Source: Patescibacteria group bacterium | Lineage (GTDB): Bacteria > Patescibacteriota > Patescibacteriia > SG8-24 | Length of the DNA stretch: 58,483 bases | NCBI GenBank assembly: GCA_028714475.1 | Contig: JAQTNC010000008.1 | Coordinates: forward strand, 1-58,483 | Reading direction: 5' to 3' | Shown: piece after piece, positions 36,956 to 52,283 of the stretch | Numbering within the stretch: position 1 is the stretch's first letter | Layout of the letters: each line of letters begins with the position of its first letter | Translations under genes and position numbers: made by a program | Notes under the pieces: model-generated | The model's input: only the letters and a program-made list of their open reading frames with translations | Database searches by the model: none | What the model was told of the DNA's origin: nothing

Positions 36956-37618
36956 TCAAGGCTGGGGCGGCGCTTGCGGCACGCCAAACAGCTTGCCGGG
37001 GCCGTTCGGGTTATAGCCGTTCTTGACTTCGGCGCCGTCCTGAAAGCCGTCGCCGTCCGTATCCGGATTGAGCGGGTTGGTGTGGTAAATCTGAACCTCC
37101 TCGCGGTCCGTCAAGCCATCGCCGTCGGTGTCGGTCTTGGTTGGATCAGTGCCCAACTGCTGTTCTTCCGCATCCGTGAGACCGTCCCCATCTGTGTCCA
37201 CCGCCGGTGGAGGCTCGACGGCCGGCGGGGTGACGGCCGGTTCGGTTGGGGTGGTGGGTTGCTCGGTCGTTGGCGGTGCCGGTTGGGTGGGTTCGGTCGG
37301 CGCTGGCGTCGGGGTGGTCGGCTCGGCTGGAGCACTCGGCGCTGGTGTTTCGACAGGCGGCTGGTTCGTCGCCGTCTGGCTCGCTGGCGGTGTTACCTGG
37401 GGACGGAGGAAAAACCAATATCCGGCCCCGCCCAATCCGGCCAATACCACCAATCCGACCATCACGAAAATCAGCCACGACGGCCCGGCCACGGTCACTG
37501 GGGCAGGCACGGAAACAGTGGTCGGGGTATTCGGAACCGGCCCATTCGGCGCTGTTCTCGCCTTAAAGGGGTCGGTTTCCGCGAAGATGTCTGGTGGTTC
37601 CTGCACGTTGTCAAACAT
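36956..37618 (-). CDS. membrane-anchored Pro/Thr-rich protein with TSP type-3-like repeats
   Basis: TM WLIFVMVGLVVLAGLGGAGYWFF; DTDGDGLTDAEE, DTDGDGLTDREE, DTDGDGFQDGAE. Confidence 0.8.
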   Translation of the reverse strand: MFDNVQEPPDIFAETDPFKARTAPNGPVPNTPTTVSVPAPVTVAGPSWLIFVMVGLVVLAGLGGAGYWFFLRPQVTPPASQTATNQPPVETPAPSAPAEPTTPTPAPTEPTQPAPPTTEQPTTPTEPAVTPPAVEPPPAVDTDGDGLTDAEEQQLGTDPTKTDTDGDGLTDREEVQIYHTNPLNPDTDGDGFQDGAEVKNGYNPNGPGKLFGVPQAPPQP

Positions 37619-37798: not shown

Positions 37799-38155
37799 CT
37801 AGCGGCCTCCCCCACGATTGCCCTTATGAGCCGCCTCTTCCGCCGAGTTCGTAAAGCCGCTCTGATTCCATATTTCCTTCTGGACGGCCGGGGTTGGCGG
37901 CTCGTCAGCGGCGTTTATCAGCTGCATGCCTGCCACTATGTCCCCTTCTTGGGCAGCGCCAGCGGCCGGTGAACCGCTTATCGCGCCGCCTGGGGTGCCT
38001 GGGCCGCCCGCTCCGCCGGGCAACTGGCTACTTGGCCCTCCGGCGGCAGGAGTCGGGACGGTCTGGCCGCGCCTGACCGCCATGACCGCGACGATGCCGA
38101 TGGCGACCAACAAAACCGCCGCCACGCCGATGATGATCATTGTCCTTTTTTGCAT
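37799..38155 (-). CDS. small N-terminally anchored protein, function unknown
   Basis: TM MIIIGVAAVLLVAIGIVAVMAV; starts 11 nt after the giant gene stop. Confidence 0.6.
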   Translation of the reverse strand: MQKRTMIIIGVAAVLLVAIGIVAVMAVRRGQTVPTPAAGGPSSQLPGGAGGPGTPGGAISGSPAAGAAQEGDIVAGMQLINAADEPPTPAVQKEIWNQSGFTNSAEEAAHKGNRGGGR

Positions 38156-38166: not shown

Positions 38167-41100
38167 CTAGGGTGTCGGTTTCGTGTCGCTTATCGTATTA
38201 GGCGCTGAAACCTGGTGCGGCCCGCTGGTCTTCATGATGTGGTGCCACACGTCCCAATACTTGCCGTTGTTGGTGGGCGGAAGGTACGGCCCGGACAACG
38301 CGCAGTCGGTATCAGAATTGCACCAAGTCGCGTAAACCTTGGCGTTCATGGCGGCGAACTTGTTCCGGCCGCAAGTAGCGCCGCAGTTATAGTCGTCCAC
38401 GTAGAATTTCCATATCGTGTCGTTTGGATGCGGCTGACCGCTCCAGTTCCAAATCATGATTTCCGGAGCCGTGCTGAAATCATTGCAGTCCTCCGTGCCA
38501 TTCTCATGATAACAGGAAAGGTACGCGTACGGATCGGCATCGAGCTTGCCCTGCTTGCCGGCGAAGAAGATTTCCCCGTAAGTCGAGTCCGGCGGCACCA
38601 ACAGGTGAGAATCCAGGTAGTCGCCGTTCAGGTTGCCGTCCCAAACCAGAGCCACCATCATGTGGTTCGCCGGCGGCTTGGGCATGAGGAAAACGTTAAC
38701 GTCAAAGGCCGACTGGCCGGGTTCGCTCACGATGTCGGGCGTGAAATCGTGCGAGAAGTACCCTCTCGTGTGACGGTCGGTCAGGGCCAGATAAATCGAG
38801 TATTTTGACGGGATGTCCCAACCGGGCTTGAACTCGTCAACCTGGACGATGGTCTTGCAGCGGTTGTTGCTCGTGTTGGGGCGCCTGATCTGTTGCGCGA
38901 AGCTGAACCGCCCGTTGCCGTCGGTCGTGGCAAACTCCCCGCCGGCGCCGCATTTGCTGCCGCCACCGCGGCTCGTGCATTCATCGTTGCTTTCACAGGG
39001 CATGCGGTCGCCATCGCAAATCATCGGCTGGACGCGGACGGTGGCTCCGGAGATCTTCTGGAAGCTGTAGACGGCGTCCATGACGGTGCCGGCCAGCGTT
39101 ATCTTTTCCGAAGTCGGCGTGTTGGAATCAGCCAGGACGCTCCAGTTGTCGTCAACCTTGTAGTTGCAGTCGTTGTCCTTGCCGTCACAGACTTCCGTCA
39201 CGGCGGACACGACGCGCGGCGTTCCGGTCGGGTTGCCGCTGTCGTCAACCTGCTGGGCGGAATAGGCGCCGTGTACCGTCTTATCAAGCGGCGCACAATC
39301 CAAGGCATCCGGCACGCCGTCATTATCGTCATCTGGGTCGCAGGCGTCGGTTATCCCGTCGTCGTCGAAATCCGAACCCTCGTTCTTGCACAAGGAGGTG
39401 TTTGGCATGGGGCAGGACCGCTGGCAGTTCTTGCCGCTGCAGACCGCGTCGCCGACGATGCGGCCGTATGCCTGATCGTAAGCCGTCGTGCTGACGCAGG
39501 TCCAGTTAACGAGATACTGCGGCTGGCCCGGTTCGCACTGTTCGAGCCCCGGCGGACGGAAAGCCGCGTCCTGCACGATGCTGTCGCCGCAATAGCCGCC
39601 GGAAACGGTCACGAGCTTGCAGGCGGTCGAACAGTGGTTGCAGGACAGGCCGTAAGGCGCCTCGCAGCGCTGGCCGTTCTTGGCACCGTCATCGCACTGC
39701 TCGCCTTTCGTGATGCTGACATAACCGTCGCCGCAAACCGCCTCCCGGCACATGTACGGCGGGTTCTTGAGCGGGTCAATGACGCAGGCGTCGCGGTTGT
39801 TGTCGTTGCCGTCATCGCACTGTTCGCCGGTCTCCTTGACGCCGTTGCCGCACTGGCCCGGCGCGGTGCAGCTCCAGTTGCCCCATTGGCAGGCGGCACC
39901 ATCGTCAGCGGTCGTGGCCGGATCGTTGGCCCCGCAGACGCGCCGCCATTTCCGTTCCGGCTTGGCCGAATCGCACGAAGCGCCGCACTTGTAGCCGTTC
40001 GGGCATTGGCTGTCTTCCGTGCATCCGTCCTGGATGTCACCGGCATCAGTCGTGTTCACGCACCGCTTGGCGTATTCCTCGGTCTCACCGTCGCACTGCT
40101 CCGATCCGTTCTTGACGCCGTCGCCGCAACGCGGCCCGACGCCGGTACAGTCCCAGGAGCAGGAATTGGCGTTGGCGCCGCCTCCGCCGCACTGTCCGCC
40201 AAACGACTGCAGAACGCCGTTCAGGCTATAGACGCCGTTGTTGTCGCCGCAATCGCAGGCCTCGTTCGGCTGTTTGACGCCGTCGCCGCAGGAGGTCCGG
40301 CCGGTGCCGAGACAGTGGGCATCGCAATGTCCGTAGGTGCCGTTCAGCGAGCCGTCATCGCAGGCTTCAGGATACTGGACGCGGCCATCGCCGCAAATCC
40401 CGGCTTGGCAGGCGCCGAAGCCGCCCCAAGCGCACTGCGGCGTGCAGGTTCGCTCACGGACGCCGACGCGGAAAGAATCCTCGTTCGGGTAAAGGAGAGA
40501 ATCGATCTGGCGCAGCGGCTTGCACGGGCCGACATTGGTGTCGCCGACCTTGCAGGAATTGTCGTCAGTACAGGATTTGGTCCGCTGCTTGTCGCACACC
40601 GCGAAGACCCGGCACTCGTTGTCGATGTCCGGCAGCGAATTCGGTTCACACATTTCCATGTTGGTGCAGACGCCGCGGCCGGCATCCCAAGCGCAGGTAC
40701 CCGCCGGCGAACAGGAGCCTTCGGAACCGCCGCACTCGCCCAACTGCCGCTGGACGACCCCATCTCCGCAAACGCCGCCGCGACCCATCTCGATGTCGCT
40801 GCAGTTGGCGACCGTGGTGTTGACGCCGTAAAGATTCAGGATGCCGCCGTCGGCGTACTGACAGGTGCCGGTGGCGTTATTCCAGGCGCAGCCGGGGGTG
40901 CCGCCGCAAGCGGCCAAATCGGTCTTCTCCAGACAGGTGCCGCCGCCCCAAGTCAGGTTGGGGTTAGGCCCGCACCAGTAGGTGTTCCAGGAGCAGAAGC
41001 CGTTCTGGTCGTTGTTGCAGGAGTTCGCGTCCCCGATCGGCAGGCAGCGTTCCGTGGTCAGCAGCTCAAAGTCGGCGTTAAGCGAGAAGTTGGTGCCGCC

Positions 41101-44100
41101 GGCCGACACGTATTCATAGATATGGGAACCAGCCGGACAAAGATAAACCTTGTTCGTGGCGTCCCAGCAGGTGTTCAGGTCATATTGGCCGCCATAGGAC
41201 AGCCGACAGTTCATATAGCTGTTGAGCGGGTCAATCGGCAGGCGGTCCATCCCCAAGTCCTTGGCCAACACCTCGGTCCACGACGGCCAGCCGCTGACGG
41301 TCCGGCCGCGCAGGTAGGTGCCGGCTTCCAGCCGCGGATAGGCCTGGCCCTTGAGGGCAACCAAGGTGCTCCGGAAGTTCAGCAGATCCGACCAGCGTTG
41401 CAGGTCGCGCCTCATCTTGGACTTGTCGGCCAAGCAGATGTTGCCGGCGCGGCCGTCCACGAAGCCGCCGGCGGCGTCCACGCGGCATTCCCGATCCGTT
41501 CGGCAGGAGATGGCGCGACTGGTGGCGTCAAGCGTCTGTTGGCCGTTCTCGTCGATGCAATAGCCGATGTCCCGGACATTGCGGTTGAAATCCATGTTGG
41601 CCAGGATGCGGTTGAACACGGCGACCGTCTCGGGCGTTGACCCTTCGCTGTAGGAAAGGATGTTGACGTTCGTGAAGATCTTGGTCGCGGTCTTAGCCGC
41701 GGCGTTCGCGTAAACGGTCCGCCCTTCGCGCACGGCCTCGTAGCCGTCCACGCTCGTCGGCGTCGGCGCGCCAGTGAAGCCTTGGCTCAAGTACCAATCC
41801 GACACGCTCATGTGCTTGGGGTTGGTCATGATGCGCAAGCCGATGGCGTTCTTAGCCCACTCGGCATCCGGCGACACGCCCGTCAGGTCGTAGGTGAAGA
41901 GGTATTCGCGGTAAATGTCCGGCCGAGTCGGCGCGATGCGGATAAGCCGCTCCTCGTTGAGCGCCGGCAGAGTTTCGGTTTCCGCGCCGGCCTTCTGCCC
42001 GTCACGGCAGTAATAAAAGGAAAGGTTGGTGTCCGGATCGTAGAACGGGAACCAGACGAATTCGTTCGGCAGACAGTCCTGGCGGTTGTAGTCGCCGTTC
42101 GCCTGCCGGTCCCACGGCAAGCTGATCTTGCCGTCGCTGTCGCAGGTGCGACGGCGCGGCCACGGTTCCTCGCAAAGCATGACCGTCACGCTGGCCGAAT
42201 CGCTGAAGGACAGCCGATCCACCTTGTCCGGCAGGCGCTTATAGACATTGGCCTTGACGGTCACGATGTCCTGCCCGTTCTTCGGATAGACGTCGCTCGA
42301 ACCGGCGGGCGCCTGGCGCCGCACGTTCACCCAGGCCTGGTTGGTCTGCGATGACGGGAACGAGCAGTCATCGGCGCAGGACGTCACCTCGCCGACGGAA
42401 CAGTAGCCGTCGCCGCATTGGGCGGGCTTGGCGTCACGGCAATCGGCGCTGTTCGGATCCTCGGCCACGCCGCAAACGCCCGCGCCGCACGAGGCCGGAC
42501 AGCGGCGCGTCGGGTCGTTGGAACAGGCCGGCATGTACTCGCAGACGCCGTTGCCCGCGGCCGGCGGGAGGTAGGTGGGGGTGATCTCGATGACGGAGTC
42601 AGGCGTCACCTGTTGCCATTCCCAGAAGAAGGAATATTCCGGCGTCGAGGCGATTTCGGCCTCATCGGTTTCGCCATGCGGATGGGCACGGGCGGCGAAC
42701 AACTCGTCGCCGTCAACCTTGTCCTTGGGATCCGGGGCATCGCCCAGGTTCTCGGCGGTGGTGAAGAGATGCGAGCCCGGTGCCACCGTCACGTAGTCTA
42801 TTTCGCAGATGTCGGCCTTCGTGCGGAAATGCGTCTGGAAGGAGGTCGGCATCGGCACGCCGTCACTGCCGGTCACGGCCTGTTCGGCCTTGGCGGTCCG
42901 CTGCCCAGGCGTGTCCGTGGCCAGGTAATCGTAGCCGACCGCCTTGACGCGATACCAAGCGTTGGGCTTCAGGGCCACTTTCGGATAGAAGGTGACCACC
43001 GAGCCGTTGACCATGACTTGACCGGGAATCGGGCAGTAAACCGCGTTGGCCGGAGGGTTGGCGGCCGCGACGCCCGGCACCAACGAGCGGAAGAACGACT
43101 TGATGGCGTTCCAGGCGCCCCGCAACAGGCTCGGTCGGCCGGTCGGGGCCTGGTCGGGGGATGACCAATCAAAGGCCAACGGCACGCGCGTGAGGCAGCG
43201 TCCGCCGGTGCCGCATTTCCCTTCATCAAGGCCGTTCGCGCCGGGCGTGCAGGAAACGTTCGGGTTGTCCTCGCAGATTGACGAACAGGTGCTGCCGGAA
43301 ACGTTCTCGGCGACGACGATGCCCTTGTTAACGCTCTCCTTCTTGATTTCGCGGTCGAAGGTCATCCGCACGACCGTATTGCGGCAGACCTTGTCGCGGT
43401 TGTCCGTCGGATAGGTTTCGCTGACTTGCGGCGTTGGGGCGCAACAACCGCCGGCGTCACAGCCGAGGTCGTTCGTGGGCGTGACGGTCTGGCCGTCGCA
43501 GTACTGTTGGGAGTCGCCGGTCTGGGCTATCTGCGGGCTGCGGCAGACGCAGGACATCGTCACGGTCGCCTGGCCGGCACTGGCAGGCGGCACACCCGTG
43601 AGCGTCGCGCTCAAGCTGTCGCTGGCGCTCACGACGCCCTGGGGCCGTCCGCCAACGATGATCTGGAAAGGATCGGCGTAAGGCCGGTTGGCGGTGGTTT
43701 CGCACCGAGCGTCCTCGCCGTCGCCAGCCGCGCCGTCGCCGCAGAAAGACGGGTTCGGGTAACGGAACGAGGCGCCGGCGAGCAGACATCGGCTCGTGCA
43801 CCACGGCGGCAACTCGCCGCCCACGGCTTCACATTTCTCGCCGTTCTCCGGAACGCCGTTGCCGCAACAATTATGGTAATTCGGGTCGCCGATGACCGCG
43901 CAGGGGCTGGTCCCTTTTTTCAGGCAGGTGGACTGGTCGCAGAAGATTGCCACCTGGCCCACGCCGAGATCACAGCCGTTGTCCTCGCCCGGTTCGGTGA
44001 TGCCGTTGCCGCAATAGTTGACGCAGGGCGCACCGGGCATCAAGGCAGGGTCGCTGCAGGAAGGCGCGGTTCCCTCGTTCAGACAGTCGGCGCCACAGCC

Positions 44101-47100
44101 GTCGCCGGAGGCATTGTTGCCGTCATCGCAGGATTCGCCGTCGCCGATGACGCCGTCGCCGCAAGTCGCTCCGCCCGCCGTCGCGCCCAAGAGGACACAA
44201 CCGCGGTTGTTCAGGTCAGGACGATTGGCGGCATCCACGGCCGGATCCTTACAGCCCGGCGGGAAGACGCCGCCGTACTTCTCGCAGGTTTCCCCGGCAT
44301 CGAGAACGCCGTTGCCGCAGGTCGGCGCGACTGTGCCGAGCTTGAGGCAGGTTTTCTGGTCACAGCCGTTCGGCCACGCGCCGCTCACCGACTTTTCGCA
44401 ATCCTCGCCCTTCTCGAGACGGCCGTTGCCGCATTGAGCCAAGACGTTCTGGGAGCCGGCGTTCAAACAGGCAGGCGTACAGCCGACGGCTGGCGCGGCG
44501 GTTCTGACGCGCGCGTTCCGGGTGCCGTCAGGCAGGAAGCCGGCGATGACATTCTTGGTTTCCGTGAATGACCATTGCCAATCCTGCCGCGAATCCAGCT
44601 GCTGGCCGGAAGCACTGCAGGCGTCGGGCTCGCCGAAGGCCGCGACGCTGAAGCCGGCCCTTTCGCCGACATACCGGAGTTGGGTCGCCTTGGGGTCAAG
44701 CGTCGTGCGGTCCGCCTGGCAAATCGAAGGGGTGTCCTTAACGCGGAATTTCCAGGTGAAGTATGCGCCGCTCGTCAAGCCCTTGAGCGCCACGCCGCTC
44801 ATGCTGCGGAGATAGGTACCGTCGGCTTCGGTGAGCGGTGCGCCCTTGAGTCGAACCACGTAATAGGCGCCGTTTTCCATCGGCTGGGCCAGCTGGGCGA
44901 CCACGTTCGTGAAGCCGGCCGTGGTGCCGTTCGTCGTGAAAGAGGTGATGGTCGGCGCGTGGTCGGCGTCATACGGCGGGTTGCAGGTCTCGTTGCGGCA
45001 CTTGGCGATGATGAAAGTGCTCGCGGACAGCGACGCGGAATCCATCGGCACGTTGAAGGTCGCCGCCACGGCCGCGTTCGGGCAGGCCTCGAGGCAGTTC
45101 GGCGCGTAGGACACGACCGCCGGGTCAGCGAACTTGACCGTGATCAAGGAGGCTCCTTCCTTATAGTAAGTCGCGGCTGACGTCTGGGGGTGCACGCGCA
45201 CCGTGAGCGAGGCCGGCTGTCCGGTCGGCGTTTCCTTGGCGGCCGTGACCGGCTGGAAGCAGGCGTTCTGGTTCTGGAGCAGTGCCAGGATCTGGGCATC
45301 GCTCGTGGACCAAGCCATGTCATAAGGCTGAACCGGCCGGCACGGCAGGCTGTTGCAGTTGGCGGCGAGGAAGCCGGCGGCGAAACCGACCGAGGAGGTG
45401 CCAGGGGCGTTCGGGGCGAGCGGAATGGAAGCCGGCTCGCCGATGTGATCGATGGTGTAGCGCGACGACTCAACCATCACGCGCGAAAGCTCGCACGGCT
45501 CACTGCTGTCCGCGGTCGCGAAAGTATACTGGAAATCGCCGCCCTCCGTGCCGTCGTAATCGCCGTCAAGCAGCCGGCCGTTCAAAGCCGGGGCATTCCG
45601 GACGCCGACGCCGGTGGTCTTGTTGGAAAAGAGGGTGACGCGATAACGGGTCGCTTTCTTCAACAAGCCTTGGTTATAGGCAGGCAACGGATCAAGGGTC
45701 ATGACCAAGCCGCCGACCGTGACGCCCAAGGCGAACTGGCCGCTCACGCTCATGGGCGTGCAGTTGGTGCCGTCGGTTCCGCACGCCAATTCCTCCACGC
45801 GCACCGTCGGCTCGGTTCCGGTCAGCCGGAACGAGGCGGCATCCATGGGTTGCGTGAACTTGACGCGCAGTTGGGCGTTCACGCAGGCGTTACTGCTGTT
45901 CGCGGCCGGCGACGGCGACTGCGTTTCACAGGGCGGTTCCTGGCCGCAAGACGGACAGCGCACGACTTTCGGCAGGTCCGGCAGGACGCCCGTGCTGAAA
46001 TGCCAGGCGAACGCCGAGCCGACCGCCACCGGCTGACAAGCCGGGCGTTCGAGAGTCGGCGCCTCGCAGTAACCAAGGGGGCAACACACGGCGGCCGAAT
46101 TGCTCTGTCGGCAATACGGCGTTCCGCCGGCCTCGTTGCAGTCCTGAACCTTGAAAGGCAAGGTGTTGGCGCTCGGCGCGTTGTTCGCGACCACGCGCAC
46201 CGGGCCGGACTTCGGCCAACTGCCCTTGTCGCTTTGGGAACCGGGAACGGCCGGCGTGATGGTGTCGGAACTCCAAGAATAATTTCCCACGGCCGACATG
46301 GTGTGGCTCTGGTCCACGTAGAAATTGACGGCGTACACCGGCGGGCTCTGCTCACCGCGTTCGCCGAAACCTTCGCCGCGGATGGCGAGGAGCGTGCCGG
46401 GCGGACCGTTATCCGGATCGATGGAACAGATGCCGGGGCTCGGCGGGTTGCCGTTCATGGCCAGCGTTTTCTCGTTACTGTTGAGTCCGGCCTGCGTCCG
46501 CACCTTCACCTGGTAATTCTCCAGGCGGAACGCCGGGCAGTTGCCGCCCTCGCAGGTGTATGCGGCCGGCGTCTTGATGACGACGTAATTGTTGCGCCAG
46601 GTGACGGCGCACGGCGGATCTGGCGGCGGTTCGCCGAAGGCGTAATCCTCGGGATGCGAAGTGGAAGTGAAGATGATCTTGCCGGGCTTGGCGCCGAAGC
46701 CGCTGCCCACGATGGTGATGTAGGACGAGACCGGCGAAGCGGCCGGCAGGATCTCGGTGATGACCGGCTTTTCCTGGCCAGCGGCCGGCACCACGCCGAA
46801 GCGCGGATCGTTGGCCGTCTTCTCGCAGGCGAACGGCGGCTGAGGGTCGCAGACATCGGCTTTCACGACGTAAACGCCGTCCGCAAGTCCCGGCACGACC
46901 GCGTCAATGCGCTTGCCCGACGGATCCCAGGCCTTGGTCGAGGCCTCATAGCCGCCCAACATCAGTTTGCTTCGGCTGTCGCTGTTGTCGCCGAGCAGGT
47001 CGCCATAGACGCTGAAATCGGCGCCGACCGGCCCCATCATGGGCTCGATGTAACAGATGCCCGGTTTCTTCTGCGATATTTTCAGGAAAGGATTCTTGTA

Positions 47101-48903
47101 TCGCCCGTTCGTCGGCTGTCCGGCCGGATCGGCATCATAGGCAACGCCGTCCTTTCGCACCAGCTTGACGTAACTCGTGGCCTCTATCCCTTCCGGCACG
47201 ACGACCGCCACATGTTCGTTCGTCCAGGACTTCGGGTCGCACGGTTGGGCAGCCTTGTCCTGCTTGAAGATGACCTGACCGGGATTGGTTCCGAAATTAA
47301 GGCCAAAGATGTCAACGATTTGCCCGGCCGCACCGGACTCCGGGGAAACGGAAGTGATGACCGGCACGTCGGCGCAATGCCCGCCTACGCAGAAAGTGGT
47401 GCAGTCGGAATCCTGCGTGCACTCGTCGCCCGGACAGCCGCCGCATTGCGAATCGTGGCCGCAGTCAACGCCGGTCTCGAAAGGCGCGACGGTCGCGTTG
47501 CCGTCCTGAATCCCGTTGCAGCAATGGCCCGGATTGACGTGGAAAAGGGCCTCGACCGTTTCGCCGGCCCGCGGCACGCCGTCGTAAGGCGTGCCTTTGA
47601 GAATATAATCGCGATTCGGCTCAAGAGCGGCGAGATTGACGTACAGGTCCTCGACCGTGAACGAGTCGGTGCTGTTCACGTTGTTGACCGTGGTCAACCG
47701 TTGGCTGTCGCTGTCCACCAAAGCCAACTGCAGGGCATCGATCTCATCGCTCGTATGACCCGTCTCTCCCGGCGGGAATTCCAAACGGAAATCCACGCGC
47801 GCCGCGAGGAAATCGTCAGACACGCCGGCGGAAACGCGGGTCCGCTCAAGACAAACGCCCGGCGGCGACTTCGGCGCGTTAATCCAGCCGACCGGCGCTT
47901 CGGTGTCCACCTTGTCGCTGAAAGCCATCGCCCGATCGCACAGGGTCGCCGCGAGCGGCGTGTTGTCCCACATGTTGGGCGGATTCGGCAGGATGGTGGC
48001 GGGGTTGGTGCAGTAAAGCGATCGCGGCTGAACACCCGGCGTCTCGGGCAGATCGCGGATGGCGGTCGGCGTGACCTCGTTGCCGCCGAGACCCGTGACC
48101 CCGCCCTTGACCTGGACGTAGTACCAGCGTCGGCCCTCGAAATAGGTCGGGTCGTCGCCGGGATTCACGAGCGGCGTGGCAGACGGCTTGAACTCGACGG
48201 CATTACCGGAGACGGAACGGGTTCCGGACACGATCGTGTCGCAGGCCTGGGCGCTGAACGGCTCGTTCTCGTTCGGCCGCTCGTTGCAGCGCCGGACCAC
48301 GAAAGTGTCCACGGTCACGCTGGCCGGATCAACGTTGGCATTGAAGACGACGCGGATGGCGTAATTCTTCGGCCAGCCTTCCGAGGAGTTCGGCAGGGTG
48401 CCGATGGGCGTGGTGCCGCTCACGCGGAACAGGTTGCCGCCGCCGCCGTCAAACCCGCCGCCGCCCGAGGAACAGGTCTGACCGGGCGGACAGCCTTCGT
48501 ATCCCCCGCCGCCCGTGCCTTCCAGGATGGCGTTCAGGATGAAAGTCGTGATGGCGAAGGAGGCCATGATAATGACGAGGCCGATGACCGCCTGCGTCAG
48601 GAGTTTTTTCGCCCGCAACACCTGCTCGTCGTCGCCGCGCGCCGTCATCCACAGGAATCCGGCGTAGATGACGAGCACGACCGCCACGATGCCCAAGAGG
48701 CCGATGATGGTCCTGATGATGTTGCCGATGATGGTGGTCAGACTCGCGGTCGTGAGTCCGGACGCCTGCCCCACCTGCGAGAGCCCCAAGTCAGGCGCCA
48801 CCGCCGCCACGGCCGGAAAACCGAAAGCCATGACCACGGCCAAGACGGCCGTCGTGAGGAGAAAGCTGGACAGGTTCCGGAAAATTGTTCGGTGGCGTTT
48901 CAT
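38167..48903 (-). CDS. giant (3,578 aa) surface protein with N-terminal T4SS-pilin (TrbC/VirB2)-like two-TM module followed by SbsA-Ig-like, IPT/TIG, Cys-rich CGxGxxExGExCD repeats, TSP3-like and CDGxDNDC motifs
   Basis: Single uninterrupted ORF. N-terminus IIGNIIRTIIGLLGIVAVVLVIYAGFLWMTARGDDEQVLRAKKLLTQAVIGLVIIMASFAI. IPT-like PVITSVSPESGAAGQIVDIFGLNFG. Cys repeats such as CGDGVIGDGESCDDGNNASGDGCGADC. Confidence 0.9.
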   Translation of the reverse strand: MKRHRTIFRNLSSFLLTTAVLAVVMAFGFPAVAAVAPDLGLSQVGQASGLTTASLTTIIGNIIRTIIGLLGIVAVVLVIYAGFLWMTARGDDEQVLRAKKLLTQAVIGLVIIMASFAITTFILNAILEGTGGGGYEGCPPGQTCSSGGGGFDGGGGNLFRVSGTTPIGTLPNSSEGWPKNYAIRVVFNANVDPASVTVDTFVVRRCNERPNENEPFSAQACDTIVSGTRSVSGNAVEFKPSATPLVNPGDDPTYFEGRRWYYVQVKGGVTGLGGNEVTPTAIRDLPETPGVQPRSLYCTNPATILPNPPNMWDNTPLAATLCDRAMAFSDKVDTEAPVGWINAPKSPPGVCLERTRVSAGVSDDFLAARVDFRLEFPPGETGHTSDEIDALQLALVDSDSQRLTTVNNVNSTDSFTVEDLYVNLAALEPNRDYILKGTPYDGVPRAGETVEALFHVNPGHCCNGIQDGNATVAPFETGVDCGHDSQCGGCPGDECTQDSDCTTFCVGGHCADVPVITSVSPESGAAGQIVDIFGLNFGTNPGQVIFKQDKAAQPCDPKSWTNEHVAVVVPEGIEATSYVKLVRKDGVAYDADPAGQPTNGRYKNPFLKISQKKPGICYIEPMMGPVGADFSVYGDLLGDNSDSRSKLMLGGYEASTKAWDPSGKRIDAVVPGLADGVYVVKADVCDPQPPFACEKTANDPRFGVVPAAGQEKPVITEILPAASPVSSYITIVGSGFGAKPGKIIFTSTSHPEDYAFGEPPPDPPCAVTWRNNYVVIKTPAAYTCEGGNCPAFRLENYQVKVRTQAGLNSNEKTLAMNGNPPSPGICSIDPDNGPPGTLLAIRGEGFGERGEQSPPVYAVNFYVDQSHTMSAVGNYSWSSDTITPAVPGSQSDKGSWPKSGPVRVVANNAPSANTLPFKVQDCNEAGGTPYCRQSNSAAVCCPLGYCEAPTLERPACQPVAVGSAFAWHFSTGVLPDLPKVVRCPSCGQEPPCETQSPSPAANSSNACVNAQLRVKFTQPMDAASFRLTGTEPTVRVEELACGTDGTNCTPMSVSGQFALGVTVGGLVMTLDPLPAYNQGLLKKATRYRVTLFSNKTTGVGVRNAPALNGRLLDGDYDGTEGGDFQYTFATADSSEPCELSRVMVESSRYTIDHIGEPASIPLAPNAPGTSSVGFAAGFLAANCNSLPCRPVQPYDMAWSTSDAQILALLQNQNACFQPVTAAKETPTGQPASLTVRVHPQTSAATYYKEGASLITVKFADPAVVSYAPNCLEACPNAAVAATFNVPMDSASLSASTFIIAKCRNETCNPPYDADHAPTITSFTTNGTTAGFTNVVAQLAQPMENGAYYVVRLKGAPLTEADGTYLRSMSGVALKGLTSGAYFTWKFRVKDTPSICQADRTTLDPKATQLRYVGERAGFSVAAFGEPDACSASGQQLDSRQDWQWSFTETKNVIAGFLPDGTRNARVRTAAPAVGCTPACLNAGSQNVLAQCGNGRLEKGEDCEKSVSGAWPNGCDQKTCLKLGTVAPTCGNGVLDAGETCEKYGGVFPPGCKDPAVDAANRPDLNNRGCVLLGATAGGATCGDGVIGDGESCDDGNNASGDGCGADCLNEGTAPSCSDPALMPGAPCVNYCGNGITEPGEDNGCDLGVGQVAIFCDQSTCLKKGTSPCAVIGDPNYHNCCGNGVPENGEKCEAVGGELPPWCTSRCLLAGASFRYPNPSFCGDGAAGDGEDARCETTANRPYADPFQIIVGGRPQGVVSASDSLSATLTGVPPASAGQATVTMSCVCRSPQIAQTGDSQQYCDGQTVTPTNDLGCDAGGCCAPTPQVSETYPTDNRDKVCRNTVVRMTFDREIKKESVNKGIVVAENVSGSTCSSICEDNPNVSCTPGANGLDEGKCGTGGRCLTRVPLAFDWSSPDQAPTGRPSLLRGAWNAIKSFFRSLVPGVAAANPPANAVYCPIPGQVMVNGSVVTFYPKVALKPNAWYRVKAVGYDYLATDTPGQRTAKAEQAVTGSDGVPMPTSFQTHFRTKADICEIDYVTVAPGSHLFTTAENLGDAPDPKDKVDGDELFAARAHPHGETDEAEIASTPEYSFFWEWQQVTPDSVIEITPTYLPPAAGNGVCEYMPACSNDPTRRCPASCGAGVCGVAEDPNSADCRDAKPAQCGDGYCSVGEVTSCADDCSFPSSQTNQAWVNVRRQAPAGSSDVYPKNGQDIVTVKANVYKRLPDKVDRLSFSDSASVTVMLCEEPWPRRRTCDSDGKISLPWDRQANGDYNRQDCLPNEFVWFPFYDPDTNLSFYYCRDGQKAGAETETLPALNEERLIRIAPTRPDIYREYLFTYDLTGVSPDAEWAKNAIGLRIMTNPKHMSVSDWYLSQGFTGAPTPTSVDGYEAVREGRTVYANAAAKTATKIFTNVNILSYSEGSTPETVAVFNRILANMDFNRNVRDIGYCIDENGQQTLDATSRAISCRTDRECRVDAAGGFVDGRAGNICLADKSKMRRDLQRWSDLLNFRSTLVALKGQAYPRLEAGTYLRGRTVSGWPSWTEVLAKDLGMDRLPIDPLNSYMNCRLSYGGQYDLNTCWDATNKVYLCPAGSHIYEYVSAGGTNFSLNADFELLTTERCLPIGDANSCNNDQNGFCSWNTYWCGPNPNLTWGGGTCLEKTDLAACGGTPGCAWNNATGTCQYADGGILNLYGVNTTVANCSDIEMGRGGVCGDGVVQRQLGECGGSEGSCSPAGTCAWDAGRGVCTNMEMCEPNSLPDIDNECRVFAVCDKQRTKSCTDDNSCKVGDTNVGPCKPLRQIDSLLYPNEDSFRVGVRERTCTPQCAWGGFGACQAGICGDGRVQYPEACDDGSLNGTYGHCDAHCLGTGRTSCGDGVKQPNEACDCGDNNGVYSLNGVLQSFGGQCGGGGANANSCSWDCTGVGPRCGDGVKNGSEQCDGETEEYAKRCVNTTDAGDIQDGCTEDSQCPNGYKCGASCDSAKPERKWRRVCGANDPATTADDGAACQWGNWSCTAPGQCGNGVKETGEQCDDGNDNNRDACVIDPLKNPPYMCREAVCGDGYVSITKGEQCDDGAKNGQRCEAPYGLSCNHCSTACKLVTVSGGYCGDSIVQDAAFRPPGLEQCEPGQPQYLVNWTCVSTTAYDQAYGRIVGDAVCSGKNCQRSCPMPNTSLCKNEGSDFDDDGITDACDPDDDNDGVPDALDCAPLDKTVHGAYSAQQVDDSGNPTGTPRVVSAVTEVCDGKDNDCNYKVDDNWSVLADSNTPTSEKITLAGTVMDAVYSFQKISGATVRVQPMICDGDRMPCESNDECTSRGGGSKCGAGGEFATTDGNGRFSFAQQIRRPNTSNNRCKTIVQVDEFKPGWDIPSKYSIYLALTDRHTRGYFSHDFTPDIVSEPGQSAFDVNVFLMPKPPANHMMVALVWDGNLNGDYLDSHLLVPPDSTYGEIFFAGKQGKLDADPYAYLSCYHENGTEDCNDFSTAPEIMIWNWSGQPHPNDTIWKFYVDDYNCGATCGRNKFAAMNAKVYATWCNSDTDCALSGPYLPPTNNGKYWDVWHHIMKTSGPHQVSAPNTISDTKPTP

Positions 48904-48924
48904 GGTCGTGATCGTGCGCGCGCG

Positions 48925-51327
48925 TCAGGGCGGACAGCTGAAGGTTTCCTGTCCGATGCGTTCACAGCAGGATGGCGCGCCGGCATTGGTCGGACAGCCG
49001 TAGCCCTGGCTCGGGAAAAAGCAGTTCTGCTTGACGTCGCGAAGCTTGGCCCGCGCCGTCGGCCGGTAAATCGGCGTGGCTTCCAGGTAGTTGTTGACGT
49101 CATCCTCGGTCCAGCCCAGGTCGTTGGCCTTGAAGAACGGTCGGTGCTCAAGGGTGATGAGCGTGACCTGGCGATTCTGGCCGTTCACGCTCACCGTGAT
49201 CGGGCCCGTTCCGGCGCTCACGAAGTAGGCCGGTTGGCCCAGAGGCTCGTTGGCGCAGTTTTGCTGGTTGGCGCCCTGGTCACAAGGCTTGGTGGGATTG
49301 AGCTTGCGCAACTCGCGGCCGGTGAGCAGGATGGTGGCCGGCGGGTTGATGTCGCTCTCAAGCCCGGTGCGGAAGGACGAGAGGCTCATGATCTTGCTCC
49401 AGGTGATCGTGACGGGCTGGGTGGCCGGGACATTCGAGGGGCCTTCGGGGGCGGGCGTGTCGCTGGTTGGCTCGGTAGGCGGCACGGCCGAGCTCGGCGG
49501 CGTGATGTCGATGATGGCCGGCGGCGTCAAGTCGATGTTGGAGCCGACCGTGTAGAGCCAGCTGACCGAATCCCCCCAAAGGTTGACGCGGCCACCGGCC
49601 AAACCCACGCCGTTATTGGTGACGTCGCCGATTGCGCCCGGGCCTTGCGCCTTGCCGTCCGCGTTGCCGTCGAGCGAATTGCTGACCATGTCGGTGACGC
49701 CGTCCGGCAGGACCAGGTTCGCGGCCGCCGGCGGATTGGTGGGCGAGACGGTGGCTGCCCGCGTCGTCACCCGCATCTGGACGTTTTTCGGCAGGCAATA
49801 AACCGGGTCGCCGCAGGAATTCTGGCTCACGCCCTCGCATTTGGTGCTCGGCACGAATTCGACGGTGCGGTATTTGTTGGCGATGTTCCAGCTGCCGTTC
49901 ACGACCACGAAAGTGGAAGTGTTGGTCGAGACGCAAACGCCGCCCTGCCACGCGCAGGAAGTGGCGGCGGAACAGTCCGTCTGGCTGGCCTTGTCCTCGC
50001 AGCCGAGCCGACAGACGGTGTTCGGCAGGCAACGCGCCTCGACCACGACGTTGTTGAAGCCGCCGCCGGAACCGTTCAGGCCGCTCACGGTCGTCGGATC
50101 CATCGCCTCGTCGAAATAAACCTGCAGGAGCTGGTTGCGGTCCAGGGCGTCGCTCGCGGGATTTTCCACGCCGGCCGGCACGATGGCGGTGATTTTCGGC
50201 GGCGTGACGTCGGCGGCGATGCCGGTGGCGAACGACCAGAAGTAGGAACCGTCGGCCTGCCCTTCGGCAAACGCCGGCTGAATGACCGGTTCGGCCGCCG
50301 TCGGCGACGGAGACCAGACCTTGAGGCCGTTCGGCCCGCCCCGCAAGCCGACGCGGTAATTGACGGGGATGGTTGAGCTGCCGAGGTATTCCTTGGGCAT
50401 GATGACGACCGTCTGTCCCTGGCTCGCCGGACTGAACACAGCCGGCACGGCCGTCACGGACACCAGCGGCGTTTTGTCGCCCACGAGCGCCTTTTCCTCG
50501 GCGGTCGCGGCGTAACGTCCGTTGAAGCGGGCGTCCATGTCGCCGTTCGGAATTTCCTTCAAGGCATCGTTAGGCAAAATGCGAATGTTGTCGGTATTGA
50601 GTTCCAGCTGGCCCGCGACCACTGACGCGCGCGCCGCCTGACTGCAACCCTGCGGACAAATCTGGTCGTCCGTGGTGACATATGTTCCCTTATCGTCGTA
50701 ATTTTTGAAAATCGTCGAGAGCCCCAGCGGCTTCTTGAAAGTGATGGTGATCTTGGTGTTTCGCGGCACGTCGGTTTGCCCGACTTCCGGGTAATGATAT
50801 TCGATGATGCCGTTGCCGAGGTTCTCCGGGCCGCAGCCGGCGCAATAGACGGTGACCAGCGAATTCGGCGAGGTCGGCGGCTGTTGATTGACGCCGCCGG
50901 TTCCGCCCGCGCCCCCGAGGATGGCATTCAGGATGAATTCGGCGATGGCGAACGCCGCCGCCCAGATTACCAAGCCGATGACGGCGTTCTTGATGATGTT
51001 CTTGGCCTCCTCGACGTCTTCGGCATTGCCGCGCGCCGTCATCCACTTGAAGCCGGCGTAAATGAGGAGCACAACCAGGATGATGCCGAGCACGCCGAAA
51101 ACCGCGCGGATGATGCCGCCGATGATGACCGGCAGGCTGGTCGTCACGAGACCGCTGGTTTGGCCGACCTGCTCAAGCGCCGTGAGCGGGTTGACGGTGG
51201 CGGCCATGGTCGGCAGCGCCCAGAGCGCCGCGATAGCCAAAAGGACGGCGCCGCCGACCACGAGTGGCCGCCGCGTCCGTCCTTCGGCTTCGCAATGATT
51301 TTTCTTTCGACTCCACCTTCCGAGCAT
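48925..51327 (-). CDS. 800-aa surface protein with the same N-terminal T4SS-pilin-like module plus SbsA-Ig-like domains
   Basis: IIGGIIRAVFGVLGIILVVLLIYAGFKWMTARGNAEDVEEAKNIIKNAVIGLVIWAAAFAI is paralogous to the N-terminus of the giant protein. Confidence 0.88.
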   Translation of the reverse strand: MLGRWSRKKNHCEAEGRTRRPLVVGGAVLLAIAALWALPTMAATVNPLTALEQVGQTSGLVTTSLPVIIGGIIRAVFGVLGIILVVLLIYAGFKWMTARGNAEDVEEAKNIIKNAVIGLVIWAAAFAIAEFILNAILGGAGGTGGVNQQPPTSPNSLVTVYCAGCGPENLGNGIIEYHYPEVGQTDVPRNTKITITFKKPLGLSTIFKNYDDKGTYVTTDDQICPQGCSQAARASVVAGQLELNTDNIRILPNDALKEIPNGDMDARFNGRYAATAEEKALVGDKTPLVSVTAVPAVFSPASQGQTVVIMPKEYLGSSTIPVNYRVGLRGGPNGLKVWSPSPTAAEPVIQPAFAEGQADGSYFWSFATGIAADVTPPKITAIVPAGVENPASDALDRNQLLQVYFDEAMDPTTVSGLNGSGGGFNNVVVEARCLPNTVCRLGCEDKASQTDCSAATSCAWQGGVCVSTNTSTFVVVNGSWNIANKYRTVEFVPSTKCEGVSQNSCGDPVYCLPKNVQMRVTTRAATVSPTNPPAAANLVLPDGVTDMVSNSLDGNADGKAQGPGAIGDVTNNGVGLAGGRVNLWGDSVSWLYTVGSNIDLTPPAIIDITPPSSAVPPTEPTSDTPAPEGPSNVPATQPVTITWSKIMSLSSFRTGLESDINPPATILLTGRELRKLNPTKPCDQGANQQNCANEPLGQPAYFVSAGTGPITVSVNGQNRQVTLITLEHRPFFKANDLGWTEDDVNNYLEATPIYRPTARAKLRDVKQNCFFPSQGYGCPTNAGAPSCCERIGQETFSCPP

Positions 51328-51361: not shown

Positions 51362-51811
51362 TCAGGAACCGCTTAACACTTTTTTGACAGCCGCGCTGAC
51401 CTTGGCTCCATCGGCGCGACCCTTCGCTTCCTTCATGACCTCGGCCATGACGCGGCCGAAATCCTTGGCCGTCACCGGAGCCAGCGCCGCGACTTTGGCC
51501 TCCGCGATTGCCGCCAACTCCTCGTCCGAAAGCTGTTCTGGCAGGTAACGCTCGATGAAGGCAATCTCCTTTTCAGCCTGATCCACCAAGTCCTGACGCT
51601 GGCCGGCGCGGTACGACTCCACGGCGTCACGGATCTTTTTCGCCTCGCGGCCCAGCGTCTCAATCACGTCCGCTTCCTCAAGCGGCTTCATCTTGTCGAT
51701 CTCCGCGCTCTTGAGCGCGGCGCGCATCTGGCGCAGGACCGAAACCGCGAAGGCATCGCGGGCCTTGGCCGACTGGACGTAATCGCTGTCGATTCTTTCC
51801 CTGGTCGTCAT
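51362..51811 (-). CDS. yqeY: GatB/YqeY domain protein
   Basis: DYVQSAKARDAFAVSVLRQMRAALKSAEI...EIAFIERYLPEQLS. Confidence 0.9.
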   Translation of the reverse strand: MTTRERIDSDYVQSAKARDAFAVSVLRQMRAALKSAEIDKMKPLEEADVIETLGREAKKIRDAVESYRAGQRQDLVDQAEKEIAFIERYLPEQLSDEELAAIAEAKVAALAPVTAKDFGRVMAEVMKEAKGRADGAKVSAAVKKVLSGS

Positions 51812-51833
51812 CGCATTGGTGATTGACCGCGCT

Positions 51834-52088
51834 TTAGCGGGCGCGGTTGCTTCGCTTCGGGCGAAAATCCTCTTCCGTCGCCTGTCCGGTCTTGATCAGG
51901 TATTCGCGTTTGCCGCGCAAATACTCGCGCCGCAAAGCTGCCTCACGGACAGCCGATTTGCTCTTGCCGCGGGTGTGGAACCGGATTTTCTTGACCTGCA
52001 ACAGTTTTCCGCTTTCCTGAACCCGCCGGCTGAATCGGCGCAACAGGCTCTCAAAGCTTTCGCCTTTCTTTCGTTTCACTTCAGCCAC
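51834..52088 (-). CDS. rpsU: 30S ribosomal protein S21
   Basis: GTG start preceded by GGGGGGTGA; AEVKRKKGESFESLLRRFSRRVQESG. Confidence 0.9.
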   Translation of the reverse strand: MAEVKRKKGESFESLLRRFSRRVQESGKLLQVKKIRFHTRGKSKSAVREAALRREYLRGKREYLIKTGQATEEDFRPKRSNRAR

Positions 52089-52253: not shown

Positions 52254-52283
52254 TTTTTTTCAGCTAAAAATAGCCTAAAAACA

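What the first reader, a model, noticed from the sequence alone, without database searches (positions are those of the whole stretch)
38167..51327. Two adjacent genes fuse a T4SS-pilin (TrbC/VirB2)-like membrane module to very large extracellular proteins (3,578 aa and 800 aa)
Both proteins begin with the same ~130-aa architecture. A signal/TM is followed by L(T/S)QVGQxSGL and then two hydrophobic helices joined by a charged loop (VIYAGFLWMTARGDDEQVLRAKKLLTQAVIGLVIIMASFAI versus LIYAGFKWMTARGNAEDVEEAKNIIKNAVIGLVIWAAAFAI). That pattern is the hallmark of small stand-alone TrbC/VirB2-type pilins, in the form common in Patescibacteria/CPR genomes. Here it is followed by a Gly-rich linker and 670 to 3,400 aa of adhesin-like domains: SbsA-Ig-like, four IPT/TIG-like, two arrays of Cys-rich repeats, TSP3-like, CDGKDNDC, and an unassigned C-terminal domain. 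The two genes are 21 nt apart. No VirB4, VirD4 or VirB6-type gene is visible anywhere in the 58 kb. A pilin fold used as the membrane anchor, or as a polymerising base, of a giant surface protein would be an undescribed display mechanism.
Basis: partly seen in the sequence, partly recalled or inferred. Interest (0 to 1): 0.78.

Follow-up and report, generated by a model that had tools for sequence, protein, structure and literature searches.

The report
Pilin-headed giant surface protein pair
Two neighbouring genes of an ultra-small (Patescibacteria) bacterium each start with a complete small "conjugation-type pilin" membrane hairpin and continue into a large extracellular protein (800 and 3,578 residues); the pair sits at the same chromosomal spot in 76 of 80 related species examined and has not been described in the papers I could search.

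Summary
ORFs 48925-51327(-) (800 aa) and 38167-48903(-) (3,578 aa), 21 nt apart, both open with a signal peptide and a full-length match to Pfam PF18895 T4SS_pilin (above the gathering score). A Gly-rich linker and Ig-like, Cys-rich ectodomains follow. There is no other hydrophobic segment and no LPXTG.

It is neither an artefact nor a one-off. The identical pair occurs on a second assembly. The giant is colinear with orthologues over more than 3,100 residues. In 76 of 80 species-representative genomes (Uhr-, Magasanik-, Falkow- and Komeilibacteria) a medium pilin-fusion gene is followed directly by a giant one. The shared order is lepB-hisS-yqeY-medium-giant-TSP3 genes-ftsA/ftsZ.

The fused hairpins keep the conserved residues of free pilins. 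The two hairpins of one genome co-evolve (55% vs 46.5% identity, p~1e-4). No T4SS machine gene lies in the window or within 10 kb in the 80 loci, although two cassette genomes are listed as VirB4-positive elsewhere.

Most likely these are modular VirB2-like pilins whose hairpin anchors and pairs two adhesin ectodomains on the cell surface. Incorporation at a pilus tip is possible but untested, and the fold search against solved pilins was inconclusive. I rate it a new variant of a known kind, of good interest.

The parts
48925..51327 (-). Medium pilin-fusion gene (800 aa, 84 kDa)
   Evidence: ORF and translation. PF18895 and Big_5. NF045849 at 41.8 bits against a cut-off of 40. At least 212 homologues of the ectodomain alone, and almost all of the 120 listed carry PF18895. 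AF2 model with pLDDT 85 and pTM 0.80.
50908..51327 (-). Medium protein aa 1-140: signal peptide (about 1-42, ..PTMA|A) plus pilin hairpin (helices 65-96 and 102-137; PF18895 match at aa 62-132)
   Evidence: The cleavage site is read from the sequence by the AxA rule and is inferred.
50866..50910 (-). Medium protein Gly-rich flexible linker (aa 140-154)
   Evidence: pLDDT below 50 for residues 140-154 in an otherwise confident model.
48928..50865 (-). Medium protein ectodomain (aa 155-800): a chain of Ig-like beta domains ending in the conserved QNCFxPS...C...CC motif
   Evidence: AF2 pLDDT mostly above 90. Foldseek finds only Ig-like chains: LdtMt2 BIg domains at E 1.5e-4, an S-layer protein, and PrgB Ig domains. 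Invariant Q767, N768 and C769.
38167..48903 (-). Giant pilin-fusion gene (3,578 aa, 380 kDa, 184 Cys)
   Evidence: ORF. Identical protein on Logan contig SRR22315509_91142. Colinear with orthologues at about 34% identity over more than 3,100 aa.
48514..48903 (-). Giant protein aa 1-130: signal peptide (about 1-33, ..AVA|A) plus pilin hairpin (helices 55-86 and 92-131; PF18895 match at aa 52-122)
48409..48513 (-). Giant protein Gly-rich linker (aa 131-165)
   Evidence: Read from the sequence (..EGTGGGGYEGC..SSGGGGFDGGGG).
38170..48408 (-). Giant ectodomain (aa 166-3578). Order of domains: Big_5 172-276; four TIG domains 514-915; weak Big_5 at about 993-1091 and about 1261-1366; Cys-repeat array (DUF4215/myxo_disulf) about 1480-1700; Big_5 1824-1889; unassigned 2100-2900; second Cys-repeat array about 2900-3150; TSP3/MopE motifs 3178-3252; unassigned C-terminal domain 3270-3578
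   Evidence: Pfam scans of the whole protein and of ten overlapping segments. TIGR02232. No hydrophobic segment after aa 130 and no LPXTG.
35723..37618 (-). Two downstream single-pass membrane proteins with TSP3 repeats (220 aa at 36956-37618; 407 aa at 35723-36946). They are syntenic with the cassette in other genomes.
   Evidence: Pfam TSP3_bac. Homologues lie downstream of the giant in 16 and 11 of the 80 loci; most loci do not extend past the giant, so the denominator is smaller than 80.
37799..38155 (-). 118-aa single-pass membrane protein with a Gly/Pro-rich tail, 11 nt downstream of the giant gene
   Evidence: No family was found. Conservation in other genomes was not detected.
51362..54476 (-). 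Conserved upstream neighbours: yqeY (51362-51811), hisS (52284-53687), signal peptidase I lepB (53733-54476)
   Evidence: Pfam. Upstream synteny in 67, 66 and 62 of the 80 loci, and also.

Best explanation
The two genes are a vertically inherited pair of 'modular' VirB2-like pilins of ABY1-class Patescibacteria.

Shown:
- Each protein consists of a signal peptide, a complete PF18895 helix-loop-helix hairpin, a flexible Gly-rich linker, and a Cys-rich ectodomain built largely of Ig-like domains. The ectodomains are a 68-kDa Ig-domain stalk and a 365-kDa multi-domain adhesin-like protein.
- The hairpin is the only hydrophobic or sorting element in either protein.
- The pair and its neighbourhood are conserved in 76 of the 80 related loci examined.
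- The fused hairpins keep the conserved residues of free pilins.
- The two hairpins of one genome co-evolve.

Inferred:
- The proteins are inserted by Sec and cut by signal peptidase I after AxA.
- The hairpin sits in the cytoplasmic membrane with both ends outside and the charged loop inside. The whole C-terminal part is therefore displayed on the surface of this wall-bearing, outer-membrane-less cell.
- The two hairpins pack against each other, and possibly against free pilins. The Ig stalk and the giant adhesin are thereby presented together as a fixed attachment apparatus for a host cell or substrate.
- On this reading the pilin hairpin acts mainly as a membrane anchor and pairing module. 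It does not need the T4SS.
For: Architecture:
- Domain content and HMM scores.
- Only three hydrophobic segments per protein, all in the first 140 aa. No LPXTG and no type IV prepilin motif.
- AF2 gives a confident hairpin (pLDDT about 90), a disordered linker and a beta-rich ectodomain. Foldseek matches only Ig-like chains, with no enzyme fold.

Conservation:
- 76 of 80 loci have a second pilin-headed ORF directly after the medium gene. Two more (L071, L085) have a diverged hairpin.
- Of the 38 downstream ORFs that end inside the locus, 27 are 2,900 aa or longer.
- The locus is a housekeeping and envelope neighbourhood (lepB, hisS, yqeY upstream; TSP3 proteins, ftsA, ftsZ downstream). No VirB4 was found in the window or in any of the 80 loci.
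- The same positions are invariant or nearly invariant in the fused and the free modules: Y, G, M, T, G, A, I, G and L of the YAGxxWMTAxG...A...IGL pattern.

Co-evolution:
- Within-genome giant-to-medium hairpin identity averages 55.0%, against 46.5% between genomes (permutation p about 1e-4).
- The partner is the best-matching medium hairpin for its giant in 24 of 77 genomes, where about 1 would be expected.
- In the window the two hairpins are 62-63% identical and nothing else is shared.
- DNA identity of the modules is 68% and the longest identical run is 19 nt, so this is not recent gene conversion.
Against: - A plain anchor would not need to keep the full free-pilin residue pattern. Free pilins are as similar to the fused hairpins (up to 57% identity) as orthologous fused hairpins are to each other.
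- Small free pilin genes lie inside or beside the cassette in L023, L033, L052, L059 and L073.
- Two cassette genomes are listed as VirB4-positive by PMC12102498 Table S1, so pilus assembly is not excluded.
- Topology, cleavage, pairing and surface location are all inferred.
- Lineage-specific amino-acid composition could contribute to the co-evolution signal.
Confidence: 0.5

Rival explanations
1. Pilus-tip or priming complex. The two hairpins are true assembly subunits. The T4SS encoded elsewhere extracts them from the membrane and builds free PF18895 pilins beneath them. The stalk protein and the giant adhesin then cap a VirB2-type filament. This would take the role that VirB5 has in Gram-negative systems and that modular minor pilins have in type IV pili.
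For: - The fused hairpins retain the complete conserved pattern of free pilins, and their best sequence matches are free pilins.
- Free pilin genes are interleaved in some cassettes.
- The module family is T4SS-linked elsewhere. Pilin genes lie near virB4 in 1,135 of 1,948 assemblies (PMC12102498). A Firmicute homologue lies 4 kb from a VirB4-like ATPase.
- Cassette genomes L080 and L086 are VirB4-positive.
- Bulky modular type IV pilins are modelled at filament tips (PMC8179133).
Against: - No T4SS gene lies within 10 kb in 80 loci or anywhere in the 58-kb window.
- The free-pilin arrays closest in sequence are also not next to VirB4.
- At least one Uhrbacteria assembly is listed as VirB4-negative, though it may be incomplete and it was not checked for the cassette.
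- No VirB2-type pilus has yet been seen in Patescibacteria.
- A 365-kDa cargo on a two-helix subunit has no precedent.
Confidence: 0.27
2. Precursor or polyprotein. The hairpin serves only for export. The protein is then cut in the Gly-rich linker. This releases a free pilin and a secreted or wall-bound ectodomain.
For: - The linker is flexible and poorly conserved.
- Classical TrbC and VirB2 pilins are trimmed at their C-terminus (established knowledge of RP4 TrbC/TraF, not tested here).
- Tandem multi-pilin ORFs exist that might also need processing.
Against: - No conserved cleavage motif is present at the junction in 103 aligned homologues.
- No dedicated protease gene lies in the cassette; lepB is a general signal peptidase.
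- The ectodomains have no other anchoring signal.
Confidence: 0.08
3. The hairpin is not a pilin in any functional sense. PF18895 proteins of this class would form a membrane oligomer, such as a ring or pore. The fusions would be its extracellular appendages.
For: - The structural search gave no conjugative pilin. The nearest geometric match is the ATP-synthase c-subunit hairpin (rmsd 2.7 Å, not significant).
- Covalent tandem arrays of up to 10 hairpins in one ORF resemble fused ring subunits.
- The free-pilin arrays sit beside a solute-binding protein gene.
Against: - HMM links to TrbC (19 of 58 relatives) and to the conjugation-cluster Mbov_0395 family.
- Pilin arrays lie inside essential T4SS clusters in Saccharibacteria (PMC10633639).
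Confidence: 0.1
4. Artefact: a mis-assembly, or a gene-call fusion of a small pilin gene with a downstream gene.
For: None was found. Read mapping could not be done.
Against: - The identical 800-aa and 3,578-aa pair lies on a separately assembled contig.
- The same fusion and the same order of domains occur in dozens of independent MAGs, including closed chromosomes.
Confidence: 0.01

Closest known systems
Free VirB2-like pilins of Patescibacteria (Pfam PF18895; arrays of 2-11 genes; essential in Ca. Southlakia epibionticum)
   Same: The same module at 45-57% identity over the whole length of a free pilin, with the same signal peptide type and the same conserved residues.
   Different: The free pilins are 100-170 aa and often lie next to virB4. 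Here the module carries 660-3,450 extra extracellular residues. It sits at a housekeeping locus with no T4SS gene.
Modular type IV pilins (S. sanguinis PilB/PilC, ETEC CofB, V. cholerae TcpB)
   Same: The same design logic: a small N-terminal pilin 'carrier' module, a short linker and a bulky functional module. These are thought to sit at filament tips (PMC8179133).
   Different: An unrelated pilin superfamily and machinery. There is no class III signal peptide or G|FTLIE motif here. The carrier here is a two-helix hairpin rather than an alpha1-beta pilin fold, and the cargo is up to ten times larger.
Mbov_0395 family pilin-like conjugal transfer protein (NCBIfam NF045849) of Mycoplasma ICEs and Firmicute conjugation clusters
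   Same: Homologous hairpin. The medium protein passes the family cut-off (41.8 vs 40). A Pontibacillus member scores 59 bits against the Patescibacteria pilin profile and lies 4 kb from a VirB4-like ATPase.
   Different: A small stand-alone protein (151 aa) inside a conjugation cluster, with no ectodomain.
T4SS adhesins: VirB5/TraC at the pilus tip; LPXTG adhesins such as PrgB in Gram-positive systems
   Same: Possibly the same role, namely contact with a target cell. PrgB Ig-like domains appear among the weak structural matches.
   Different: These are separate proteins with no pilin module. PrgB is sortase-anchored, and there is no LPXTG here.
Giant surface proteins of CPR bacteria (for example Vampirococcus lugosii, 1,392-4,163 aa)
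   Same: Very large, membrane-associated proteins rich in adhesion domains, proposed to bind the host (PMC8080830).
   Different: That paper mentions no VirB-type component. Here the pilin hairpin head and the paired medium gene are the defining features.

Membership tests
Pfam PF18895 T4SS_pilin | HMM score at or above the gathering score (26.6 bits) over most of the 71-position model | tested here: met
   41.2 and 46.0 bits for the N-terminal 140 aa scanned alone (35.7 and 42.7 bits for the whole proteins), model positions 2-71 of 71.
Pfam PF04956 TrbC/VirB2 pilin | HMM match to the classical TrbC/VirB2 model | tested here: inconclusive
   The two window proteins give no hit at E<=1. 19 of 58 close relatives hit at E<=0.01 (best 6.4e-7). 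However, 16 of 58 also hit an unrelated membrane family, so compositional noise is comparable.
NCBIfam NF045849 Mbov_0395 pilin-like conjugal transfer protein | Score at or above the curated cut-off of 40 bits | tested here: inconclusive
   The medium protein scores 41.8 and passes. The giant scores 33.6 and fails.
VirB2-type conjugative pilin (functional class) | Signal peptide followed by two hydrophobic helices joined by a short charged loop | tested here: met
   Hydropathy analysis. AF2 helices 65-96/102-137 and 55-86/92-131.
VirB2-type conjugative pilin (functional class) | Small mature protein (about 70-120 aa) | tested here: not met
   800 and 3,578 aa.
VirB2-type conjugative pilin (functional class) | Encoded with VirB4 and other T4SS machine genes | tested here: not met
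   None in the 58-kb window and none within 10 kb in 80 related loci (a single phmmer query with limited sensitivity). The rest of the genome was not available.
VirB2-type conjugative pilin (functional class) | Fold similarity to solved conjugative pilins (F, T, pKM101 and others) | tested here: inconclusive
   Foldseek of the module model against PDB gave a best E of 0.5 and no pilin among the 50 matches shown (64 with E<=10). A bare helical hairpin has little discriminating power.
VirB2-type conjugative pilin (functional class) | Polymerises into an extracellular filament | not testable with these tools
   Needs cryo-ET, cryo-EM or biochemistry.
Type IV (class III signal peptide) modular pilins | N-terminal prepilin motif G|(F/M)(T/S)L(I/L)E and a single long alpha1 helix | tested here: not met
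   No such motif in the first 60 residues of either protein.
Sortase-anchored (LPXTG) surface adhesins | C-terminal LPXTG motif, hydrophobic segment and charged tail | tested here: not met
   No LPXTG-like motif and no hydrophobic segment after residue 141.

The most novel reading that the evidence does not exclude
The medium and giant proteins are the founding subunits of a VirB2-type pilus in a monoderm bacterium. Their hairpins nucleate or cap a filament of free PF18895 pilins. This would make them the first modular conjugative-type pilins. They would replace the missing VirB5 tip adhesin and place a 365-kDa adhesin at the end of a T4SS pilus used for episymbiotic attachment.
Probability: 0.25. 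Interest if true: 0.88.

Novelty: new variant of a known kind. Interest (0 to 1): 0.68.

Why it matters
Patescibacteria are thought to live attached to other cells. In the one tractable species, the T4SS and its VirB2-like pilins are essential, yet nobody knows what the pilins do.

Across one whole class, two of the largest surface proteins are welded to this pilin hairpin. They are kept as a pair next to the cell-division genes. This gives a concrete and testable handle on two questions: what the hairpin family does (anchor, pairing module or filament subunit), and which molecules make host contact.

The finding also extends the 'graft a function onto a pilin' strategy to a second, unrelated pilin superfamily. 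That strategy is so far documented only for type IV pilins.

Finally, it warns annotators that 'pilin' hits in these genomes include 600 to 3,700-residue proteins.

Tried and rejected
- Foldseek of the isolated hairpin model against PDB gave no significant match and no conjugative pilin, so it neither supports nor refutes a VirB2 fold.
- A PDB sequence search with the pilin profile returned only spurious hits to designed 'Pizza' propeller proteins through a short AGxxWxT..G.. stretch.
- PDB searches with the medium-family profile and with the whole giant were also unhelpful. They gave nothing and one TIG-domain hit respectively.
- The third homologue search, on giant residues 2291-2800, returned only four smaller proteins and no giant orthologues. 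This is a limit of the word index. That region therefore has no function assigned.
- tblastn of the hairpin against 72,556 plasmids gave one weak hit (E 0.2). It became useful only after scoring it with the profile.
- Recent gene conversion as the cause of the similarity between the two hairpins is rejected. DNA identity is 68% and the longest identical run is 19 nt.
- Mis-assembly is rejected.
- I considered using the figure of 497 genomes as the family's spread. I rejected it because one of the search patterns is the pilin motif itself, so free pilins may be included. Only the 80 returned loci are counted.
- The Rfam scan found only a tmRNA and two tRNAs, nothing related to the finding.
Full report
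**1.

The window has a 3,578-aa ORF at 38167-48903(-) and an 800-aa ORF at 48925-51327(-), separated by 21 nt. Both N-termini match Pfam PF18895 T4SS_pilin over the entire 71-position model. Scores are 41-46 bits for the N-terminal 140 aa alone (36-43 for the whole proteins), against a gathering score of 26.6.

I built a profile from 109 free small pilins recovered with the giant's N-terminus. It aligns to both proteins over the full length of a free pilin, including the signal peptide (141 and 129 bits). It hits nothing else in the six-frame ORFs of the window.

Each protein has only three hydrophobic segments, all within the first 140 residues: a signal peptide and two helices. Neither has an LPXTG motif or a type IV prepilin motif.

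After a Gly-rich linker the giant carries, in order:
- Big_5 (SbsA-Ig-like) domains and four IPT/TIG domains;
- two DUF4215/myxo-type Cys-repeat arrays, and weak TSP3 and MopE motifs;
- two regions with no family, residues 2100-2900 and 3270-3578.

The giant has 184 cysteines and an acidic pI, as expected for an extracellular protein.

**2. The genes are real and are not a one-off**

The identical pair lies on a separately assembled 17-kb contig from run SRR22315509. The giant aligns colinearly with giants from other genomes, at about 34% identity over more than 3,100 residues and 27% in a more distant genome.

The ectodomain of the 800-aa protein alone finds at least 212 homologous clusters. 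Almost all of the 120 listed also carry PF18895. Sources name them 'pilin', 'Ig-like domain-containing protein' or 'hypothetical', from Uhrbacteria, Parcubacteria and Falkowbacteria.

Six context look-ups showed the same order each time: signal peptidase lepB, hisS, a small gene, yqeY, a 600-800-aa pilin fusion, then a pilin fusion of 3,271 to 3,705 aa as called (one copy cut at 2,739 aa by its contig end).

I then scanned one genome per species. Among the 80 best loci:
- 76 have a second pilin-headed ORF directly after the medium gene.
- Two more (L071, L085) have a diverged hairpin on a colinear giant.
- The remaining two end at the contig edge.
- Of the 38 downstream ORFs that end inside the locus, 27 are 2,900 aa or longer.
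- yqeY, hisS and lepB lie upstream in 67, 66 and 62 loci.
- Where the locus reaches far enough, the two TSP3 membrane proteins and then ftsA/ftsZ follow, as in the window.

The titled genomes are Uhr-, Magasanik-, Falkow- and Komeilibacteria. PMC12102498 Table S1 assigns the Magasanik- and Uhrbacteria entries I looked at to GTDB class ABY1.

**3. What the module is**

The family is very large. A search of 1.84 billion representative proteins gave 24,173 clusters at E<=1e-3. The best 150 break down as follows:
- about 64 are free pilins;
- about 60 are tandem 'polypilins' with 2-10 modules;
- 21 have one N-terminal module plus at least 300 further residues.

The link to classical VirB2/TrbC is by HMM only and is moderate. 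19 of 58 close relatives hit PF04956 (best 6e-7), but unrelated membrane families are hit nearly as often.

A clearer relative is the Mbov_0395 'pilin-like conjugal transfer protein' family. The medium protein passes its NCBIfam cut-off. A 151-aa Pontibacillus member lies 4 kb upstream of a VirB4-like ATPase and a peptidoglycan hydrolase, and it scores 59 bits against the Patescibacteria pilin profile. It shares the IY(A/S)GFxx(M/I)T..G....(A)K...GL.I motif. This fits the published conclusion that the Patescibacteria T4SS derives from monoderm conjugation systems (PMC12102498).

**4. Structure**

AlphaFold2 was run on the medium protein with a 103-sequence alignment and gave pLDDT 85 and pTM 0.80. 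The model shows:
- a signal helix;
- a helical hairpin at 65-96 and 102-137 (pLDDT about 90);
- a disordered linker at 140-154;
- a confident beta-rich ectodomain.

Foldseek matches the ectodomain only to chains of Ig-like domains (LdtMt2 BIg domains, an archaeal S-layer protein, PrgB Ig domains) and to no enzyme.

The giant's module modelled alone is the same hairpin. Foldseek finds no significant neighbour for it and no solved conjugative pilin. The structural membership test is therefore inconclusive, which is expected for a bare hairpin.

**5. Clues to mechanism**

- (a) The hairpin is the only possible membrane or assembly element.
- (b) The fused hairpins keep exactly the positions that are invariant in free pilins. 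Their best matches are free pilins at up to 57% identity. They are therefore under pilin-like constraint and not merely hydrophobic.
- (c) The giant and medium proteins share nothing but the hairpin (63% identity over 95 aa). Across 77 genomes the two hairpins of one genome are more alike than hairpins of different genomes (55.0% vs 46.5%, permutation p about 1e-4). The partner is the top match in 24 of 77 genomes. An ancient duplication with independent evolution predicts no such excess. Recent gene conversion is unlikely, given 68% DNA identity and a longest identical run of 19 nt. Co-adaptation of two interacting hairpins is the simplest reading, although a composition bias may contribute.
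- (d) No T4SS gene lies in the window or within 10 kb of the cassette in 80 genomes. The free-pilin arrays closest in sequence are likewise not next to VirB4. They sit between an NTP-transferase gene and a solute-binding-protein gene.
- (e) Two cassette genomes (L080, L086) are listed as VirB4-positive, with VirB1, VirB4 and a coupling protein elsewhere in the genome of L080. A few cassettes contain extra free pilin genes.

**6. Best explanation and rivals**

I commit to a pair of modular VirB2-like pilins. On this reading the hairpin, after Sec insertion and signal-peptidase cleavage, anchors the proteins in the cytoplasmic membrane with the ectodomain outside. The hairpin also pairs the Ig stalk with the giant adhesin, forming a fixed surface attachment apparatus (confidence 0.5).

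The architecture, conservation and co-evolution are shown. Topology, processing, pairing and adhesion are inferred.

The rivals are:
- The main rival (0.27) is that the T4SS picks the hairpins up so that they cap or nucleate a filament of free pilins. This would be analogous to VirB5 or to modular type IV minor pilins (PMC8179133).
- Cleavage in the linker (0.08).
- A non-pilus membrane oligomer (0.10).
- Artefact (0.01).

**7. Novelty**

Three things are already known:
- VirB2-like pilins and pilin arrays in Patescibacteria (PMC10633639, PMC12102498, PMC12857230);
- modular type IV pilins;
- giant CPR surface proteins.

Full-text searches for PF18895, T4SS_pilin, and VirB2 with fusion or adhesin terms found no description of VirB2-type pilin modules fused to large ectodomains, or of this conserved cassette. 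The most relevant survey does not mention such fusions. It accepted hits on HMM coverage, not protein coverage, and its Table S3 rows give no protein lengths.

I therefore rate this a new variant of a known kind. The sequences are already in databases. What is new is the architecture, its conservation and its implications. The literature library excludes most subscription journals, so a prior description cannot be fully ruled out.

Noticed in passing
Proteins P0126, P0122, P0130, P0203, P0229, P0116 and P0117 (metagenome representatives, not in the window): Single ORFs that carry 2-10 tandem PF18895 hairpins ('polypilins', up to 1,147 aa with 10 modules). They make up about 60 of the best 150 family representatives, although multi-module proteins are favoured by whole-sequence scoring. 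It is unexplained how covalently chained pilins would assemble.
   Followed up: partly
L090:968-11780 and L092:7643-10399: Arrays of 6 to more than 14 free or short-extended PF18895 genes in ABY1 genomes. They lie in a repeated context of NTP_transferase and SBP_bac_1 (solute-binding protein) genes, with no VirB4 within 10 kb. L090 includes 344-430-aa pilin-headed proteins.
   Followed up: partly
L091:11689-12144 (Pontibacillus plasmid NZ_CP062975.1): A Firmicute 'Mbov_0395 family pilin-like' protein lies 4 kb upstream of a VirB4-like ATPase. It is clearly homologous to the Patescibacteria pilin hairpin (59 bits). This sits uneasily with statements that Gram-positive T4SSs lack VirB2 homologues.
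   Followed up: partly
L011, L013, L020-L022 and many others in L010-L089: Many TPA metagenome-assembled genomes that carry this Patescibacteria-specific cassette are titled 'uncultured Gammaproteobacteria bacterium'. One is titled Kapaibacterium, and protein sources also name Eisenbacteria and Methylomirabilis. These are probably mislabelled or mis-binned records.
   Followed up: no
window 53733-54476 (-): Signal peptidase I (lepB) lies four to five genes upstream of the cassette in 62 of 80 genomes. It may be plain housekeeping synteny. It is nevertheless the enzyme expected to process both pilin heads.
   Followed up: partly
window 16814-17725 (+): A 303-aa ORF with an mTERF domain (PF02536, E 3e-10). 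This family is mainly known from organelles.
   Followed up: no
window 19429-20385 (-): tmRNA (tag ANLISKAKSALANAFAPSFSPVYA) directly next to smpB.
   Followed up: yes
window 811-5263 (+): Two further large envelope-type proteins: 777 aa with GHL15 plus FG-GAP repeats, and 673 aa with weak DUF11/NEW3 Ig-like hits and one hydrophobic segment. They are followed by glycosyltransferase and Wzy-like genes. Together this is a second surface-structure region in the window.
   Followed up: no
window 22400-25300: About 3 kb with no ORF assignable to any family and slightly lower GC (0.57-0.58 against about 0.62). No Rfam family is present other than tRNA-Asp at 25405.
   Followed up: partly
whole window: GC content of about 60-65%, which is high for Patescibacteria. 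The closest homologues of the cassette proteins are only 43-46% (medium) and 34% (giant) identical, so the source is a divergent lineage within the Uhrbacteria-like group.
   Followed up: no
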